A stretch of DNA of 52,288 bases, taken from the sequence record MN122072. One strand, written 5' to 3'. Under the pieces are notes generated by a model. That model was not told the origin of the DNA and did no database searches. It was given only the letters and a program-made list of their open reading frames with translations. How positions within the stretch are numbered: position 1 is the stretch's first letter; every line of letters starts with the position of its first letter. Shown here in pieces: positions 40,623 to 45,292 of the stretch. The DNA is from Escherichia phage vB_EcoM_Bp10. The translations under genes were made by a program, and so were the position numbers.

Positions 40623-41157
40623 CATTATTCAAGCAGTAGAACAGCTTAAGTCCTGGCGTAGAGATGAAAATTTATTGGTTCGTTTCTACACAGGCGAAAC
40701 TAATTCTGAATTTGTAGATGCGTGGATTGATGGCCTGTCTTGGCGTCATTATGATTTCAACATGCGGGATTATTTGCATGAAGAATACGGCATTGAATAT
40801 CCAGAAGACGGTACATACGACATTCTGGAATCAAGCGAAGAAGACGTTACCGAAGTTTGCTTTGCCAATGGACTATTCAGCATTCGTAAATATGATAAGT
40901 TCAATGAGCTGCTCGTTGACACCGATTTGGATGTAATTCTTGCAGCATTCCGCAGTGGTGAGATTGATATTTTCACTGTAGACGATTTGAATGACAAGGT
41001 TATTGCTCTGTGTGATTCAATTGTGGATTACTTCAAAAACTACGAAGGAATAGAAGTTCCAGACCACCTTCGTCCATATATTGATTGGGATGCAATCGCC
41101 AGAGATTATGGAAGTGACTACATTTTCTCTGAGGGAATACTGTTCTTAAATGCGTGA
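40609..41157 (+). CDS. strongly acidic protein (about 40 Asp/Glu in 182 aa), DNA-mimic-like
   Basis: Hand count gives about 40 D/E against about 13 K/R; stretches like EEYGIEYPEDGTYDILESSEEDVTEV. Confidence 0.45.
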   Translation: MQNTNIIQAVEQLKSWRRDENLLVRFYTGETNSEFVDAWIDGLSWRHYDFNMRDYLHEEYGIEYPEDGTYDILESSEEDVTEVCFANGLFSIRKYDKFNELLVDTDLDVILAAFRSGEIDIFTVDDLNDKVIALCDSIVDYFKNYEGIEVPDHLRPYIDWDAIARDYGSDYIFSEGILFLNA

Positions 41158-41392
41158 TTTAAATATTGCTGAACTTGAGGCTGGATTGATTGTTCACCAC
41201 CAGCCTCGAAACACTTTCTATCGTATTCTTGGGCCTACAAAGATTAAAACTCACTGCGGAAGTTGGGTGGATGGGTTTGCTTACCAAGAAGTGAAGAAGT
41301 ACGGGGACCATACTTTCTTGAGTATTGATTCTTCTACTATCTACACACGACCGAAAGAGCTGTTTGATTCAGACTGGAAGGTTCTGGGATAG
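41150..41392 (+). CDS. hypothetical protein
   Basis: 80-aa ORF, last gene before the 0.86-kb ORF-free region. Confidence 0.4.
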   Translation: MRDLNIAELEAGLIVHHQPRNTFYRILGPTKIKTHCGSWVDGFAYQEVKKYGDHTFLSIDSSTIYTRPKELFDSDWKVLG

Positions 41393-41455
41393 TTCCAAGC
41401 TGTTCCGTCGAAGTGCCAAGCGGGTTTTGTGCTCGCATTGGCCTTCGGCTTTAGT

Positions 41456-41480
41456 CTGAAACATTAGTGGGATTTGATTC
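41456..41480 (+). promoter_or_regulatory. copy of conserved motif, candidate phage promoter
   Basis: tctgaaACATTAGTgGGATtTGatt. Confidence 0.4.
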
Positions 41481-41595
41481 GGACCACTTAGGGAAGAAAG
41501 GCATTATACACTTATCGCCAAATGGGTGTCAAGCACTTTCTTCATTTATTTTAATTTATTCTTATTATTCTTTTTGTTTGGAATATTGGAATAAT

Positions 41596-41620
41596 TCTGA
41601 AACATTAGTTGGAATTGAAG
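41596..41620 (+). promoter_or_regulatory. copy of conserved motif, candidate phage promoter
   Basis: tctgaaACATTAGTTGGAaTTGaag; 20 bp upstream of a tRNA-like minihelix. Confidence 0.4.
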
Positions 41621-41639
41621 AGACAACATCAGATAAGAG

Positions 41640-41704
41640 CTTTGTAACTAGGTAGTCCGTCTGGTACCAGGGCGTGTGAGAACGTTCGATTCGTTCTACA
41701 AAGT
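41640..41704 (+). ncRNA. tRNA-like element (perfect 7-bp acceptor stem plus T-arm, shortened body)
   Basis: CTTTGTA (41640-46) pairs with TACAAAG (41697-703); adjacent T-arm GAACG-TTCGATT-CGTTC (41680-96); body about 8 nt too short for canonical D and anticodon arms. Confidence 0.3.
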
Positions 41705-42256
41705 TCTTTTCGATGGAATGTTTCCATCAAATACATTTATCTTTTAACATAGGCCAAAGGGCCGGAATACTTCTTCGCAGAAAGCTGTTCACTTGTTATA
41801 GCGATGTATTGGGATGAATTGGTACTAAATAAGCAAGCTGTTAGGGCTGAATAATTAGAGGGTAGTGCCTCATGCTTATGTTAGTCATTCGAAAATAGGT
41901 TTGTGCCACAAGCTGCTGGTGCTCCGAGGAAGTCGGACAAACAGGGCTTAGAGTGGCATAATCCGCACAAAACCGCGCCACCAGCTATGCCAAAGCAGGT
42001 AGGTTGGGTGAATGTATTGGGAAGGGTTGCAAAGCCTCTGTGACACGCCTGAGCCGCAAGGCGACAACACTCATGTGATTAGCGTATCGCACCCTAACGG
42101 GAGTAACTCTTCACCAATGCAGTTATCCAGAATTGACACAAACGGTAGGCAGTGGCCCGATTTTCGGCCTTCCTGCGCTACTCTGTGGCCTGTTTTACCA
42201 GGCTAAAAGATGAGAAGAGAAGTCACAAACACTGAATCGAAAATTGGAGAGTTCCT

Positions 42257-42577
42257 ATGATTCGCAAGCATTCTGCTAAAGTTTTGACGTTAAGAAATGT
42301 ACTAATGTTTCTGTCGAGTGAGGAAGGAGAGGAAGAAACAATCCACTTCGTTCTCGTTGGCGGGCGTTGGTACTATAACGGCACTAATTCTTTCCACGTA
42401 AGTCTGTCGGAGAAAGATGGATTCTGGAAGCACACCTTTAAGGAGTTGCTTGAGAGCAGTGCCAGTTATACACTTGCCGAAGTTAAGAAGTATTTCTACT
42501 GCGGCCCAAACAAGTCCATGCAAATCGCAACTCGCAACTGGACAACAAACCAACCGATTTACGGAGTTCCATTTTGA
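42257..42577 (+). CDS. hypothetical protein
   Basis: 106-aa ORF with GGAGA RBS, first gene after the ORF-free region. Confidence 0.45.
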   Translation: MIRKHSAKVLTLRNVLMFLSSEEGEEETIHFVLVGGRWYYNGTNSFHVSLSEKDGFWKHTFKELLESSASYTLAEVKKYFYCGPNKSMQIATRNWTTNQPIYGVPF

Positions 42578-44002: not shown

Positions 44003-44383
44003 GTTGCCGATGGCAAACTTGAGAGACTAAGCTAAATCGATCTGGCATGCACTGGAAGTTTTCCGGTGCTGCCTTGAACCCATTCCAGAGTGAGTGGGCT
44101 TCAATTTGTACATAATCCAAACACCATTGCATGAGCCTTCGACGGGAGGCAATGTTGGGAAATTTGTTGTGTACAAATTGAAGTAGTTTTCTGAGTCTTA
44201 CGACGGGCCTAAACTGCCTGGAGTTATTGCGACTGTTTTATTCATTTAAAATAAATGCAAATGATTCTGAAATGCGAGTTGCGGCTTAATTAAATTTAAG
44301 TCCTCTCCGTGGTCTTCCAATCCCACGTAACCAAATTTGGCGCATTGTGGCTTCGAGATGTGATTAATAAATCGGAGCAATAA

Positions 44384-44580
44384 TTAATTTGTATTCTGCG
44401 ATGCAACGCAGGCTTAAGTCCCTCAGTGCGCGTGGGGATGTGACAGAGTACAAACTTAATTACTAATTTGTATTCTGGTGTTGTTCGCCAAGATTGGTGC
44501 ACTCATGATTGGTAGTGTTGGAGAGCGCGGAGCCTAAAATATTATCTGGCATCTCCTACCAGAGTACAAACTTAATTATG
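44384..44580 (+). repeat. inverted and direct repeats of an 18-bp unit TAATTAATTTGTATTCTG, including a 36-bp imperfect palindrome at 44444-44478
   Basis: taattaatttgtattctg at 44388 and about 44463; reverse-complement form cagagtacaaacttaatta at 44444 and about 44560; related TTTGTTGTGTACAAATTG palindrome near 44160. Confidence 0.45.
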
Positions 44581-45019
44581 CAGTTGGATATTTCTAGAGG
44601 ACGGACGAGCACACTGGAATGTCTTCAATTGGTTTAGTGTGAGAAGCTATGGCAATTTGAAACGTAACTCCTTGGGGAAGTGCTCCTCTGGATTTCCCTC
44701 CACACAGGAATCTCAAGCCTGTGGCAGCGACTTCGAAGCTGCACTGCGTAACCTAAATTCACCCTAAAGTGAGTTGCCCTGAGTATGGAAATAAACTGCT
44801 CATAACCGATGGTATCTACAAAGGTAGATTAAATCAGGTTGCCTGTTGGTACTTGGGTTCAACACCTGCTTGCACTCGCAAAGTAGTGCCTCGTACCTGA
44901 GATGAAGTGAGTCGGGACCATCAATCCCACGTTATGCCAAAACATAGTAGGCGGCTCACAGATTCTACAAGCCTCGCAGTTCGGGAAAACCTGCGTTATC
45001 AAAACCCCCTTTTTTATTT

Positions 45020-45113
45020 GGACGAGTAGCTCAGAAGGTTTGCATTGTGCTCAGTCAGGTAGAGCAATCTGTTCGACAGATGTGTCGTTGGTTCGAATCC
45101 AACCTCGTCCACC
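45020..45113 (+). tRNA. tRNA-like gene, non-canonical (duplicated D-arm 5' segment, 5-nt anticodon loop)
   Basis: GGACGAG (45020-26) pairs with CTCGTCC (45104-10); T-arm GTTGG-TTCGAAT-CCAAC (45087-103); canonical D-arm GCTCAGTCAGGTAGAGC (45049-65) preceded by an extra TAGCTCAGAAGG; anticodon stem ATCTG/CAGAT has a 5-nt loop. Confidence 0.35.
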
Positions 45114-45143
45114 CACTTTAATAATAGCAATACTGGAGTCCTT

Positions 45144-45284
45144 ATGGATTTTGATGCACTTGATAATTTAGACTTCGGTGCTGCCGAAGAAGCAATTGAA
45201 GAACTTAAGAAGAAGCAGGACGAAGAAGCAATCGTTCCTGGTGAGGGCGATAACGACTGCTCAAGTGGTGCGTGCGCCATCTAA
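45144..45284 (+). CDS. 46-aa acidic peptide ending CSSGACAI (not in ORF track)
   Basis: GGAG 5-6 nt upstream of ATG 45144; MDFDALDNLDFGAAEEAIEELKKKQDEEAIVPGEGDNDCSSGACAI; directly upstream of the spanin-like pair. Confidence 0.35.
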   Translation: MDFDALDNLDFGAAEEAIEELKKKQDEEAIVPGEGDNDCSSGACAI

Positions 45285-45292
45285 GGTGATTT

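What the first reader, a model, noticed from the sequence alone, without database searches (positions are those of the whole stretch)
41393..42256. 0.86-kb ORF-free, hairpin-rich region with two promoter-motif copies and a tRNA-like minihelix
No plausible coding frame exists here in an otherwise tightly packed genome. It holds two motif copies, a tRNA-like element at 41640-41704 with a perfect acceptor stem and T-arm but a short body, and further downstream many GC-rich hairpins and a long-range pairing GCTGGTG/CACCAGC. A promoter followed by structured RNA suggests one or more non-coding RNAs.
Basis: seen in the sequence. Interest (0 to 1): 0.65.

Follow-up and report, generated by a model that had tools for sequence, protein, structure and literature searches.

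The report
Conserved structured RNA cluster in phage
This gene-free stretch of a phiEcoM-GJ1-like (Chaseviridae) phage genome holds two phage promoters followed by a chain of conserved RNA folds, the first capped by a mimic of the tRNA "elbow". None is in the RNA family database or annotated in any relative, so this is a real, undescribed set of phage non-coding RNA elements whose function is unknown.

Summary
Window 41393-42256 is non-coding. All 21 indel events among close relatives are non-multiples of 3, and no ORF is shared.

It contains:
- two copies of the predicted phage-RNA-polymerase promoter (41455, 41596);
- a tRNA-like element at 41640-41704;
- many helices.

The region is syntenic in eight lineages of Chaseviridae/Cleopatravirinae. 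It is more conserved (0.90-0.98 identity) than the flanking genes (0.6-0.8).

Compensatory base changes support these elements:
- a 5' rod with a tRNA-like cap: 22 distinct sequences, 95% paired, 23 of 30 pairs changed on both sides;
- Module A (41824-41885);
- domain B (41898-41964);
- the 127-nt domain D (42004-42130);
- domain E.

G.U wobbles and folding energies place the structure on the + strand RNA. The cap is not a tRNA gene: it has no anticodon loop, and ARAGORN and Rfam do not call it.

The region also holds a terminator, a perfect sigma-70 consensus on the opposite strand and an 81% A+T stretch.

Best reading: a cluster or leader of phage-transcribed structured RNAs, probably processed by host RNases. 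Function is unproven. Rivals are a replication origin and decoy RNAs.

The parts
41415..41449 (+). Terminator-like hairpins after the gp23-like ORF (GCCAAGCGGG...CGCATTGGC, then GCCTTCGGC, then TTTAGT)
   Evidence: Sequence. Annotated as a rho-independent terminator at the homologous place in SA91KD. Coordinates.
41455..41477 (+). Promoter copy P1 (TCTGAAACATTAGTGGGATTTGA), predicted phage single-subunit RNA polymerase promoter
   Evidence: Annotated as 'putative phage promoter 4' in phiEcoM-GJ1 and as a promoter in SA91KD.
41503..41532 (-). Perfect sigma-70 consensus (TTGACA-18-TATAAT) pointing opposite to all genes. Its spacer (41508-41529) is an inverted repeat or hairpin.
   Evidence: It scores 12/12 and is the only perfect consensus in the genome. 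The hexamers are invariant in 12 spacer variants. The 17-18 nt spacing is kept in 6 of 8 lineages. It is collapsed to 8-9 nt in Y2 and L034.
41533..41595 (.). A+T-rich stretch (81% A+T) ending in TGGAATATTGGAATAAT repeats just upstream of P2
   Evidence: More GGAATA/TATTCC copies occur in Faunus, 4HA13 and phiA050. The stretch is replaced by an ORF in metagenomic relative L049.
41596..41618 (+). Promoter copy P2 (TCTGAAACATTAGTTGGAATTGA)
   Evidence: In many relatives the promoter is triplicated, with small ORFs or extra RNA cassettes inserted between copies.
41620..41728 (+). 5' rod: leader (41620-41630), lower stem (41627-41639/41704-41715), tRNA-like cap (41640-41703) and hairpin GATGGAATGTTTCCATC (41712-41728). 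The hairpin competes with leader pairing.
   Evidence: Covariance-model alignment of 22 distinct sequences gives 95.4% paired, 23 of 30 pairs changed on both sides, 0/500 shuffles reaching this, and slid controls of 32-46%. Hand parse. Alternative folds.
41640..41703 (+). tRNA-elbow mimic: 7-bp acceptor-type stem, GGTAG D-loop-like stretch, stubby middle hairpin (no anticodon loop), and T arm GAACG-TTCGATT-CGTTC (41680-41696)
   Evidence: Not called by ARAGORN, Rfam tRNA or tmRNA models. This is the most variable block of the region.
41752..41763 (+). Small hairpin GGCC-AAAG-GGCC
   Evidence: The stem is invariant and the loop varies, so there is no covariation evidence.
41824..41885 (+). Module A: outer stem P1 (ACTAA-ATAAGCA/TGCTTAT-G-TTAGT), P2 (AGCT/GGCT), conserved single strand GAATAATTA, P3 (GAGG/CCTC)
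   Evidence: 93.6% paired, 11 of 23 pairs changed on both sides, 0/500 shuffles, slid controls 33-42%. Same fold by independent MFE in 6 lineages. Also present in Y2 and Myduc with rewritten stems.
41898..41964 (+). Domain B: extended hairpin with apical stem UCCGA/UCGGA and loop GGAAG
   Evidence: Same architecture in four genera by independent MFE. Four of five apical pairs are changed on both sides. The basal helix is UGCCAC/GUGGCA versus GCCUAU/AUAGGC, GCCAUUU/AAAUGGC, GGCUCA/UGAGCC and GGCCUU/AAGGCC. Folding z is -4.29.
41981..41999 (+). Hairpin C (CCAGC-TATGCCAAA-GCAGG)
   Evidence: A.A becomes A-U in the TH25 type. Equivalents are GCGC/GCGC in phiA050 and 4HA13, and CGCA/UGCG in Faunus. 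The formal count is weak.
42004..42130 (+). Domain D: a ~26-bp long-range closing helix (42004-42030/42103-42130) around a multi-branch core with hypervariable inner hairpins (42033-42092) and the hairpin CCC-TAAC-GGG
   Evidence: Same architecture in six lineages by independent MFE. Outer 16 pairs: 90% paired, 6 changed on both sides, 0-3/500 shuffles. + strand -52.1 kcal/mol (z -4.73) against - strand -34.9 (z -0.32).
42144..42204 (+). Domain E: stem GGTAG-GCAG/CTGC-g-CTACT with inner hairpin, then hairpin GGCCTG/CAGGCT
   Evidence: RNAalifold on 12 sequences from 7 lineages: 14 of 17 pairs have compensatory changes.
42213..42259 (+). Nearly invariant stretch (GTCACA...AATTGGAGAGTTCCTATG) with the ribosome-binding site and start codon of the gp26-like gene
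   Evidence: Virtually no substitutions among the 18 aligned close relatives; 0.93-0.98 mean pairwise identity in an 8-sequence alignment. GTCACA is conserved in all lineages.

Best explanation
The interval is a non-coding RNA locus at a transcription-unit boundary of a phiEcoM-GJ1-like phage.

Shown:
- After a terminator come two copies of the motif predicted to be the phage RNA polymerase promoter.
- From the second copy to the ribosome-binding site of the next gene (~640 nt), the + strand encodes a chain of independently folding RNA modules kept by selection across the subfamily Cleopatravirinae.
- The modules are a 5' rod with an exchangeable cap, Module A, and domains B, C, D and E.
- In this phage the cap mimics the acceptor/T-arm stack and elbow of tRNA.

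Inferred mechanism:
- The phage polymerase transcribes the array from P2 (and P1). In some relatives extra promoter cores sit directly in front of individual modules.
- The modules are then cut apart by host enzymes. RNase P (and 3' tRNA-processing enzymes) would act at the 12-bp acceptor/T stack of the tRNA mimic. RNase III would act at the 20-30-bp helices that join the 5' and 3' ends of the rod and of domain D.
- The products would be stable small RNAs plus a processed, structured leader that sets the stability and translation of the downstream gp26-gp28 operon.
- A three-segment element (leader CAUC / GAUGG / CCAUC) can switch between closing the rod and forming a local hairpin, which suggests a conformational control step.

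What the small RNAs bind is unknown. The hypervariable apical parts on conserved scaffolds suggest a host factor that differs between hosts.
For: Non-coding: 21 of 21 indel events are not multiples of 3, and there is no shared ORF.

Promoters.

Synteny: an equivalent 0.5-1.1 kb gap lies after the antirestriction gene plus a small ORF in Carltongylesvirus, Sabourvirus, Faunusvirus, Suwonvirus, Loessnervirus, Myducvirus, phiA050 and an IMG/VR contig.

Conservation exceeds that of the flanking genes.

Covariation:
- rod plus tRNA-like cap: 95.4% paired, 23/30 pairs with changes on both sides, 0/500 shuffles (hand parse);
- Module A: 11/23 pairs;
- domain D closing helix: 6/16 pairs;
- domain B apical hairpin: 4/5 pairs;
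- domain E: 14/17 pairs.

Strand: G.U is the commonest pair at several positions, and the + strand folds far better than the - strand.

tRNA mimicry: the T loop is always TTCRANN on four unrelated T-stem sequences (GAACG, GAATG, ACAGG, AAGG). A GG-containing D-like stretch is kept. The 7 + 5 bp stack is present. A 7-bp acceptor stem is a major RNase P determinant (PMC4201824).

Switch: segment 2 changes from G to A in Y2, and this is compensated in both partner segments.

Separate units: promoter cores abut domain D in Faunus, Y2 and Myduc. Promoter plus RNA cassettes are duplicated in ST32, L031 and L048.
Against: - No expression data exist for any member. Transcription starts and ends are unknown, and the ICTV profile states that Chaseviridae promoters have not been identified experimentally.
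- The window's own minimum-energy fold does not form the T arm; it appears in relatives and would need tertiary contacts.
- There is no encoded CCA, and the leader pairs with the trailer. Both disfavour E. coli RNase P.
- Modules are individually dispensable. phiEcoM-GJ1 has an HNH-type ORF in place of the 41848-42114 stretch (distal Module A through most of domain D). Faunus, phiA050, Y2 and L034 lack the T loop.
- A naive sliding scan shows no exceptional stability.
- Covariation counts on a model-fitted alignment lean towards the model.
- The cis-leader and trans-RNA roles cannot be separated with sequence alone.
Confidence: 0.5

Rival explanations
1. Replication origin of the T7 type. The two phage promoters and the A+T-rich stretch with GGAATA repeats form a transcription-activated origin. 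P1/P2 transcripts (or the opposite-strand sigma-70 transcript) prime DNA synthesis. The long structured RNA would act as a pre-primer, as ColE1 RNA II does.
For: Tandem phage promoters 141 nt apart flank an 81% A+T stretch. Iteron-like GGAATA/TATTCC repeats, 4-7 copies, occur in Faunus, 4HA13 and phiA050. A conserved opposite-strand consensus promoter is present. The phage has a T7-like RNA polymerase plus its own primase/helicase and DNA polymerase. From established knowledge, the T7 primary origin consists of two promoters (phi1.1A/B) and an A+T-rich region next to an RNase III site.
Against: - The A+T-rich repeat block is replaced by an ORF in relative L049.
- Cumulative GC skew shows no inflection here.
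- A second promoter-bearing non-coding region right after the RNA polymerase gene (33.36-33.9 kb) is the better positional analogue of the T7 origin.
- An origin does not explain covariation-supported RNA helices 200-600 nt downstream, nor their + strand wobble pairs.
- The sigma-70 spacing is lost in two lineages.
Confidence: 0.17
2. Trans-acting decoy RNAs in an arms race with the host. The modules are free small RNAs whose exchangeable apical parts (the tRNA-like cap and the inner hairpins of domain D) titrate or inhibit host factors. Candidates are tRNA-directed nucleases or other immunity proteins, tRNA-modifying enzymes and ribonucleases.
For: The two hypervariable blocks (0.54-0.77 identity) sit on scaffolds that are 0.9-0.98 identical. 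At least five cap types are exchanged between genera; for example, Pel53 in the E. coli-phage clade carries the Faunus-type cap. T-loop and elbow features are retained on unrelated stem sequences. Individual promoters sit in front of modules in some lineages. Helices joining the 5' and 3' ends are typical of stable small RNAs.
Against: No target is known. No defence or anti-defence protein is adjacent apart from an ArdA-like gene. Several lineages do without a T loop. Modular exchange could equally reflect recombination at the repeated promoters. There is no expression evidence.
Confidence: 0.18
3. DNA-level control region only. The conserved blocks are protein-binding sites, such as operators or polymerase-binding sites. 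Examples are the palindrome ATGGAA-TGT-TTCCAT and the TGGAAT repeats. On this view the helices are incidental inverted repeats.
For: The TGGAAT-type motif recurs in the promoter start region, in the repeats upstream of P2 and in the invariant palindrome 41713-41727. The perfect sigma-70 site has a palindromic spacer.
Against: Long-range helices up to 127 nt apart are maintained by compensatory changes. Frequent G.U pairs, and U.G to U-A to C-G transitions, fit only the + strand. There is a strong + versus - strand folding asymmetry. The palindrome itself co-varies as an RNA hairpin: GAUGGC/GCCAUC, GAUAGC/GCUAUC and GGUGGA/UCCACC.
Confidence: 0.07
4. Decaying remnants: a degenerate tRNA gene and pseudogenised small ORFs in a neutral spacer.
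For: The element has tRNA-like arms but no anticodon loop. A real but odd tRNA lies 3.3 kb downstream. Some records annotate small ORFs here.
Against: The region is more conserved than the flanking genes. Compensatory changes maintain the stems in 22 distinct sequences. The T loop is kept on four different stems. Indel lengths are never multiples of 3, and no ORF is shared. There is no sequence similarity to any tRNA gene in 50,697 phage records.
Confidence: 0.04

Closest known systems
tRNA mimics in non-coding RNAs: bacterial Y RNA YrlA, the tRNA-like domain of tmRNA, mascRNA, and plant-virus 3' tRNA-like structures
   Same: A T arm with the canonical UUCRA loop, a GG-bearing D-loop-like stretch that could dock on it, and a 7-bp acceptor-type stem stacked on the T stem. 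It sits on a long helix formed by flanking sequence, as in Y RNAs. YrlA with a 7-bp acceptor stem is cut by RNase P (PMC4201824).
   Different: - No match to any Rfam model, YrlA and tRNA included.
- The long helix extends the acceptor stem, not the anticodon side as in YrlA.
- There is no anticodon loop, no encoded CCA, and no tag reading frame.
- No Ro60/Rsr gene is annotated in relatives.
- It lies 25-45 nt downstream of a phage promoter, inside a larger RNA array.
Phage T7 gene 1 / gene 1.1 intergenic region: promoters phi1.1A and phi1.1B, A+T-rich primary origin, RNase III site R1.1 (from established knowledge)
   Same: Tandem single-subunit-polymerase promoters, an A+T-rich stretch and a long irregular RNA helix just downstream, all at a boundary between early and later transcription units of a phage with a T7-like polymerase.
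   Different: - The A+T-rich stretch lies between the promoters, not after them.
- The helix carries a tRNA-like cap.
- It is followed by ~500 nt of further conserved structure with no T7 counterpart.
- It is not adjacent to the polymerase gene.
- Origin activity and RNase III cleavage are untested.
Small stable RNAs of the T4 tRNA gene cluster (species 1 and 2 RNAs), from established knowledge
   Same: Phage-encoded small structured RNAs of unknown function, with tRNA-like processing features, made together with tRNA-type elements.
   Different: No sequence relation. Here the polymerase is a phage single-subunit enzyme, the real tRNA is 3.3 kb away, and processing is not demonstrated.
Large ornate phage-associated non-coding RNAs (GOLLD, ROOL)
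   Same: A long, multi-domain, covariation-supported RNA of unknown function in a phage genome, with a tRNA-type element nearby.
   Different: No Rfam match. Different hosts. The modules are separable: ORFs and promoters are inserted between them in L034 and PP101, and part is replaced in phiEcoM-GJ1. This argues against a single large fold.
ColE1 RNA II / RNA I (structured pre-primer with antisense control)
   Same: A ~0.6-kb highly structured transcript next to a strong opposite-strand promoter.
   Different: The opposite-strand promoter lies upstream of P2 and would overlap only P1 transcripts. No RNase H-type origin features are known. Phage replication proteins are of the T7 type.

Membership tests
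tRNA gene | Full cloverleaf recognised by tRNA finders (ARAGORN; Rfam RF00005) | tested here: not met
   ARAGORN found nothing here in the window or in 7 relatives. Relaxed thresholds also found nothing; only inconsistent calls appeared in mitochondrial mode. Rfam gave no tRNA hit even at E<=10.
tRNA gene | 7-bp acceptor stem directly followed by a 5-bp T stem with a UUCRANN loop | tested here: met
   41640-41646/41697-41703 and 41680-41696. Maintained by compensatory changes; the T stem is 100% paired in the aligned sequences.
tRNA gene | Anticodon arm with a 7-nt loop | tested here: not met
   The middle hairpin is 6 bp with a bulge and a 4-nt loop (GTAC, GGCC or GCGC) in all type-1 variants. 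Only the BSBP01 variant has a 7-nt loop.
tmRNA | tRNA-like domain plus tag reading frame, detected by ARAGORN or Rfam | tested here: not met
   ARAGORN tmRNA mode found nothing. No Rfam hit.
Bacterial Y RNA (YrlA) | Match to the YrlA covariance model | tested here: not met
   No Rfam family reached E<=10 in the element or E<=1 in nine relatives.
Bacterial Y RNA (YrlA) | Encoded next to a Ro60/Rsr (TROVE) gene | tested here: not met
   The neighbours are ArdA-like and unknown-function proteins. No such gene is annotated in 0-30 kb of SA91KD. The rest of the genome was not scanned.
RNase P substrate (tRNA-type minihelix) | 12-bp coaxial acceptor/T stack capped by a T loop | tested here: met
   7 + 5 bp with no intervening nucleotide.
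RNase P substrate (tRNA-type minihelix) | Actual cleavage at the 5' end of the acceptor stem; 3' RCCA contact | not testable with these tools
   No CCA follows the stem (TACAAAG-TTCT). Cleavage needs an enzyme assay.
RNase III processing site (T7 type) | About two turns (~20 bp or more) of mostly paired RNA helix in a transcript | tested here: inconclusive
   The lower stem plus acceptor stem is 19 bp with one mismatch and one bulge in the window, and 20 bp perfect in 4HA13. The domain D closing helix is ~26 bp. Cleavage and reactivity determinants were not tested.
T7-type primary replication origin | Tandem phage-polymerase promoters with an adjoining A+T-rich region | tested here: met
   P1 and P2 flank a 63-nt stretch that is 81% A+T. 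The order differs from T7.
T7-type primary replication origin | Replication initiates there | not testable with these tools
   GC skew is uninformative. The repeat block is absent in L049.
Phage single-subunit RNA polymerase promoter | Conserved ~20-bp motif, one orientation, in front of gene blocks | tested here: met
   10 cores, all on the + strand, against 0.01 expected. Promoter activity has not been shown experimentally.
Sigma-70 promoter (opposite strand) | TTGACA and TATAAT with 17+/-1 spacing, conserved | tested here: inconclusive
   Perfect in the window and in 12 spacer variants. However, the spacing is 8-9 nt in Y2 and L034, no gene lies downstream on that strand, and activity is untested.
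GOLLD / ROOL and other Rfam large RNAs | Match to the family covariance model | tested here: not met
Small protein-coding genes | Reading frame conserved among relatives | tested here: not met
   None of the 21 indel events is a multiple of 3. The 64-aa frame at 42012-42206 is broken or absent in TH25, PYps3T and Pel53.

The most novel reading that the evidence does not exclude
The locus encodes a previously unrecognised class of phage small RNAs. They would be made by a T7-like polymerase from an array of promoter-plus-RNA cassettes. Their conserved scaffolds would present exchangeable 'heads' (tRNA-elbow mimics, pseudoknot-like caps, variable hairpins) that hijack or blind host tRNA-recognising machinery such as RNase P, tRNA-targeting immune nucleases, modification enzymes or the ribosome. 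The heads would be swapped between phage genera as hosts change.
Probability: 0.22. Interest if true: 0.85.

Novelty: new variant of a known kind. Interest (0 to 1): 0.62.

Why it matters
Chaseviridae are being developed as biocontrol and therapeutic phages, yet their transcription signals and non-coding content are essentially undescribed. This analysis gives a testable map of several points:
- where the phage polymerase probably starts;
- at least five new RNA structures with comparative support;
- a tRNA-elbow mimic in a dsDNA phage outside any tRNA gene or Y-RNA context;
- a conserved RNA switch;
- two hypervariable 'heads' that behave like arms-race surfaces.

If the modules prove to be processed small RNAs that engage host tRNA-binding factors, this would add an RNA-based layer to phage-host conflict. 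It would also supply new RNA families for databases. If the region is instead the origin, it would define the replication start of the family. Either way, about 1.6% of the genome, now annotated with contradictory small ORFs or left blank, would get a correct description.

Tried and rejected
- Rfam at gathering thresholds on the whole window found only the tRNA at 45020. Rfam at E<=10 on the region and at E<=1 on nine relatives found nothing credible.
- ARAGORN in default, relaxed, mitochondrial and tmRNA modes gave no consistent call.
- The coding hypothesis was rejected by the indel spectrum and the lack of a shared ORF.
- Pattern scans for Module A gave mixed results. IMG/VR yielded 11 loci, of which one was a new lineage (L034), one a further close relative (L031), five were already-known phages and four were chance. 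GTDB genomes yielded 3 hits, which is the chance level for a 19-mer in 596 Gb. Metagenomes yielded only two close relatives.
- A protein-anchored IMG/VR scan with the antirestriction protein gave no usable new locus.
- Pfam and PHROGs on six flanking proteins found only an ArdA-like protein and families of unknown function.
- A BLAST of the 73-nt tRNA-like element against 50,697 phage records found no tRNA gene or other family.
- Cumulative GC skew for an origin showed a monotonic rise and was uninformative.
- A sliding 120-nt z-score scan showed the region is not an outlier, so thermodynamics alone would not have flagged it.
- Self-similarity of the region to the rest of the genome found only the promoter copies.
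- I first mis-indexed some hand coordinates by about 10 nt. All coordinates in this report are the programmatic ones.
- Literature searches found no description of this region. These covered Chaseviridae, Carltongylesvirus, phiEcoM-GJ1, 4HA13, ST32, PY100 and tRNA-like RNAs in phages. The original phiEcoM-GJ1 genome paper is not in the library.
Full report
**Identity of the window**

The 52,288-base window is a complete genome of a phiEcoM-GJ1-like myophage (Chaseviridae, Cleopatravirinae, Carltongylesvirus). The best match is Escherichia phage vB_EcoP_Bp7 at 98%. All genes are on the + strand. The phage encodes a T7-like single-subunit RNA polymerase. The finding lies between a gp23-like small ORF (41150-41392), which follows an ArdA-like antirestriction gene, and a gp26-like ORF (42257-42577).

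**Check of the observation**

- **No gene.** The only open frames are short. GenBank records of relatives annotate contradictory small ORFs here or nothing at all. Among 18 close relatives, all 21 distinct indel events after 41726 have lengths that are not multiples of 3.
- **Promoter motif.** The repeated motif is real. The 23-mer occurs 5 times with up to 3 mismatches, against 0.01 expected. Its core occurs 10 times, always on the + strand. The two copies here (41455-41477 and 41596-41618) are the sites annotated as putative phage promoters in phiEcoM-GJ1 and SA91KD. The ICTV profile notes that Chaseviridae promoters have not been identified experimentally.
- **tRNA-like element.** It is at the stated coordinates. 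A scan for a 5-bp stem with a TTCRANN loop followed directly by a 7-bp acceptor-type stem finds only this element and the genuine tRNA at 45020. Shuffled genomes give 0.12.

**Distribution**

- The interval is conserved at 85-98% in about 47 Carltongylesvirus records.
- An equivalent 0.5-1.1-kb gap with recognisable blocks lies at the same place in 4HA13 (Sabourvirus), Faunus (Faunusvirus), PP101 (Suwonvirus), Y2 (Loessnervirus), Myduc (Myducvirus), Aeromonas phage phiA050 and an IMG/VR contig.
- A Nefertitivirinae phage (PVN03) is tightly packed there.
- In an eight-genome alignment the non-coding interval is 0.90-0.98 identical, while the flanking genes are 0.6-0.8 identical. The exceptions are two hypervariable blocks: the tRNA-like cap (41625-41708) and the inner hairpins of domain D (42033-42092).

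**Anatomy from left to right** (coordinates)

1. Terminator-like hairpins, 41415-41449.
2. Promoter P1.
3. On the opposite strand, the only perfect TTGACA-N18-TATAAT in the genome (41532..41503).
   - Its hexamers are invariant in 12 spacer variants.
   - Its spacer is a hairpin whose changes are of the RNA type on the + strand (U.G, U-A, C-G).
   - The 17-18-nt spacing is kept in six of eight lineages and collapses to 8-9 nt in Y2 and L034. Promoter function is therefore plausible but not secure.
4. A 63-nt stretch of 81% A+T ending in TGGAATATTGGAATAAT. Other genera have more GGAATA/TATTCC copies. In one metagenomic relative the stretch is replaced by an ORF.
5. Promoter P2.
6. The 5' rod (41620-41728).
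7. A small hairpin (41752-41763).
8. Module A (41824-41885).
9. Domain B (41898-41964).
10. Hairpin C (41981-41999).
11. Domain D (42004-42130).
12. Domain E (42144-42204).
13. A nearly invariant stretch running into the ribosome-binding site and ATG at 42257.

**The rod and its tRNA-like cap**

- *Structure.* A lower stem (41627-41639/41704-41715) continues into a 7-bp acceptor-type stem. That stem abuts a T arm (GAACG-TTCGATT-CGTTC). Between them lie AC, a GGTAG stretch and a 6-bp hairpin with a 4-nt loop.
- *Compensatory changes.*
  - In 4HA13 the whole lower stem is rewritten yet 13 of 13 positions pair.
  - Two acceptor pairs and one T-stem pair change on both sides.
  - One position of the middle hairpin shows four pair types.
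- *Formal count.* A covariance model built on this structure aligned 22 distinct sequences. Of all cells 95.4% pair, 23 of 30 pairs show changes on both sides, no shuffle out of 500 reaches this, and slid controls give 32-46%. The alignment is fitted to the model, which inflates the figures somewhat.
- *Exchangeable cap.*
  - MLP1, PYps23T and flopper carry a different T arm (ACAGG-TTCGATG-CCTGT).
  - BSBP01 carries another (AAGG-TTCGAGT-CCTT), with an anticodon-like arm.
  - Faunus and Pel53 carry a cap without a T loop.
  - phiA050 carries a pseudoknot-like cap. The same cap appears as an extra promoter-plus-RNA cassette in ST32, PYps16N, L031 and L048.
  - The T loop always reads TTCRANN.
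- *Not a tRNA.* ARAGORN (default, relaxed and tmRNA modes) and Rfam do not call it. It has no anticodon loop and no CCA, and it resembles no tRNA gene in 50,697 phage records. It is a mimic of the acceptor/T stack and probably of the elbow.

**A conformational switch**

The leader GAAACAACAUC is complementary to GAUGGAAUGUUUC. Minimum-energy folds therefore extend the rod almost to the presumed transcript start. This excludes the local hairpin GAUGGAA-UGU-UUCCAUC (41712-41728).

The three segments co-vary:

| Lineage | Segment 1 | Segment 2 | Segment 3 |
|---|---|---|---|
| Window | CAUC | GAUGG | CCAUC |
| L034 | CCAUCCC | GGGAUGG | CCAUC |
| Y2 | CUAUC | GAUAG | CUAUC |

The G-to-A change in the middle segment is matched in both partners. 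Myduc keeps the hairpin as GGUGGA/UCCACC. This pattern is what an RNA switch would leave, but it rests on few independent lineages and was read by eye.

**The downstream domains**

- **Module A.** It folds the same way by independent energy minimisation in six lineages. On a ten-sequence alignment it is 93.6% paired, 11 of 23 pairs change on both sides, 0/500 shuffles reach this, and slid controls give 33-42%. Y2 and Myduc add further rewritten stems. Its single-stranded GAAUAAUUA is almost invariant.
- **Domain B.** It has the same architecture in four genera. Its apical hairpin (loop GRRAG) has four of five pairs changed on both sides. Its basal helix has five different perfectly complementary versions.
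- **Domain D.** It is closed by a helix of about 26 bp joining sequences 100-127 nt apart, in all six lineages examined. Of its outer 16 pairs, 90% of cells pair and six pairs change on both sides.
- **Domain E.** Compensatory changes occur in 14 of 17 predicted pairs.

**Which strand**

G.U or U.G is the commonest pair at four positions of the domain D helix and is frequent elsewhere. These would be A.C mismatches on the other strand. Folding energies:

| Element | + strand | - strand |
|---|---|---|
| Domain D | -52.1 kcal/mol (z -4.73) | -34.9 kcal/mol (z -0.32) |
| Domain B | z -4.29 | z -2.64 |
| Rod | z -3.27 | z -2.02 |

(All.) A fixed 120-nt sliding scan does not single out the region, because its helices are long-range. 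The case rests on comparative evidence.

GCTGGTG (41915-41921) lies inside domain B, and CACCAGC (41979-41985) overlaps hairpin C. Forcing the helix raises the energy from -41.2 to -30.1 kcal/mol, and its probability in the ensemble is 0. On a seven-sequence alignment 89.6% of cells pair. However, five rows are invariant close relatives, phiA050 keeps 3 of 7 pairs and Faunus 5 of 6, and slid controls reach 52-65%. It is not the main fold. A short UGG/CCA tertiary or alternative contact cannot be excluded.

**Modularity**

- Relatives insert small ORFs or extra RNA cassettes between duplicated promoter copies after 41619.
- L034 and PP101 have a promoter and an ORF between Module A and the later domains.
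- phiEcoM-GJ1 replaces the equivalent of 41848-42114 with 583 nt. This insert contains an ORF with an HNH-type motif that is annotated 'SbcC'.
- Promoter cores sit directly in front of domain D in Faunus, Y2 and probably Myduc.

The modules therefore behave as separable units rather than one obligatory large fold, and no single one is indispensable.

**What it most likely is**

*Shown:* a non-coding, promoter-bearing interval whose + strand RNA structure is under selection.

*Inferred:* the phage polymerase transcribes the array, and host RNases separate the modules. RNase P would act at the 12-bp acceptor/T stack. [quoted passage not shown] RNase III would act at the 20-30-bp helices, as at T7 processing sites (established knowledge). 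The products would be stable small RNAs plus a processed leader for the gp26-gp28 operon, with the three-segment switch as a control point.

I put 0.5 on this family of explanations. It leaves open whether the key activity is in cis or in trans.

**Rivals**

- **T7-type origin (0.17).** It fits the promoters and the A+T-rich repeats. It does not explain the downstream RNA helices, and it is weakened by the loss of the repeat block in L049 and by a better-placed candidate after the polymerase gene.
- **Decoy RNAs in an arms race (0.18).** This is suggested by hypervariable heads on conserved scaffolds and by cap exchange between genera. No target is known.
- **DNA-level sites only (0.07).** This is contradicted by the comparative and strand evidence above.
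- **Decayed tRNA or ORFs (0.04).** This too is contradicted by the comparative and strand evidence.

**Comparison with known systems**

The cap works like known tRNA mimics (YrlA, the tmRNA tRNA-like domain, mascRNA, viral tRNA-like structures). It fails the membership tests for tRNA, tmRNA and YrlA. The left half resembles the T7 phi1.1A/phi1.1B/R1.1 region in composition but not in order. The array as a whole has no Rfam counterpart. No description turned up in the searchable literature, and the element is unannotated in every record hit.

I rate it a new variant of a known kind: phage-encoded structured RNAs with tRNA mimicry.

Noticed in passing
window 41503-41532 (minus strand): The only perfect sigma-70 consensus (TTGACA-18-TATAAT) in the genome points against all genes and faces promoter P1. 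No gene or terminator lies downstream on that strand. The hexamers are invariant in relatives, but the spacing collapses to 8-9 nt in Y2 and L034.
   Followed up: partly
window 45019-45115: The single tRNA is 97 nt long, with a ~23-nt insertion that looks like a partial duplication of the D arm (GCTCAGAAGG...GCTCAGTCAGGTAGAGC). ARAGORN calls it Leu(CAG), while the ST32 paper calls the homologue Arg. By eye the anticodon loop reads as UCG (Arg).
   Followed up: partly
window 33357-34400: A second non-coding stretch lies after the RNA polymerase gene and a small ORF. It has a terminator, the promoter copy at 33420-33442, then several hundred bases with the lowest mean folding z-score of the genome (block 33.66-34.4 kb, mean z about -2.9). 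It is the positional analogue of the T7 origin region.
   Followed up: no
window 44133-45292 and on to about 46600: A third gene-poor region surrounds the tRNA, with no + strand ORF of 60 aa or more for over 1.1 kb. The homologous part of SA91KD (15.3-17.5 kb) is also sparsely annotated.
   Followed up: no
L004 1200-1601 (phiEcoM-GJ1 gp24): The ORF annotated 'putative exonuclease SbcC' carries an HNH-type motif (CRVCGS...HHWDY...CAKHHVEWHN). It sits in a 583-nt replacement of part of the RNA array, so it looks like a homing-endonuclease insertion and a mis-annotation.
   Followed up: partly
L049 (reverse strand) about 90-495: A metagenomic close relative has a ~130-aa ORF, by eye resembling a homing endonuclease, in place of the A+T-rich GGAATA repeat block between the sigma-70 site and P2.
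   Followed up: no
L019/L033 (ST32), L031, L016 (PYps16N), L048; L006 1795-1895: An extra promoter-plus-RNA cassette is inserted between promoter copies. It is a long stem capped by AGTCCACTGCA...TGCAG...CCAAGTCTGGACAACTTGG, where GTCCA can pair with TGGAC in a hairpin loop to give a pseudoknot-like fold. The same cap replaces the tRNA-like cap in phiA050.
   Followed up: partly
L003 1918-2094 (Mangalitsa_027); L007 1571-1755 (Faunus): A small conserved ORF with two CxxC pairs (zinc-ribbon-like, about 58-61 aa) sits between duplicated promoter copies in some relatives. The window lacks it.
   Followed up: no
window 41393-41421: A direct repeat, TTCCAAGC ... TGCCAAGC, 21 nt apart, lies right at the stop codon of the gp23-like ORF. 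It is conserved in 4HA13, Faunus and PP101 (GTTCCAAGC twice in 4HA13).
   Followed up: no
L023 (PP952070.1): A record named 'Staphylococcus phage Pel53' (host Staphylococcus hyicus) is a typical Carltongylesvirus, 87-92% identical to this E. coli-phage region. It carries the Faunus-type cap. The host label looks doubtful.
   Followed up: no
L051 6868-7437 (Proteus phage Myduc): A Chaseviridae relative encodes a putative CCA-adding nucleotidyltransferase just upstream of the primase/helicase gene. This is potentially relevant to the processing of tRNA-like RNAs that lack an encoded CCA.
   Followed up: no
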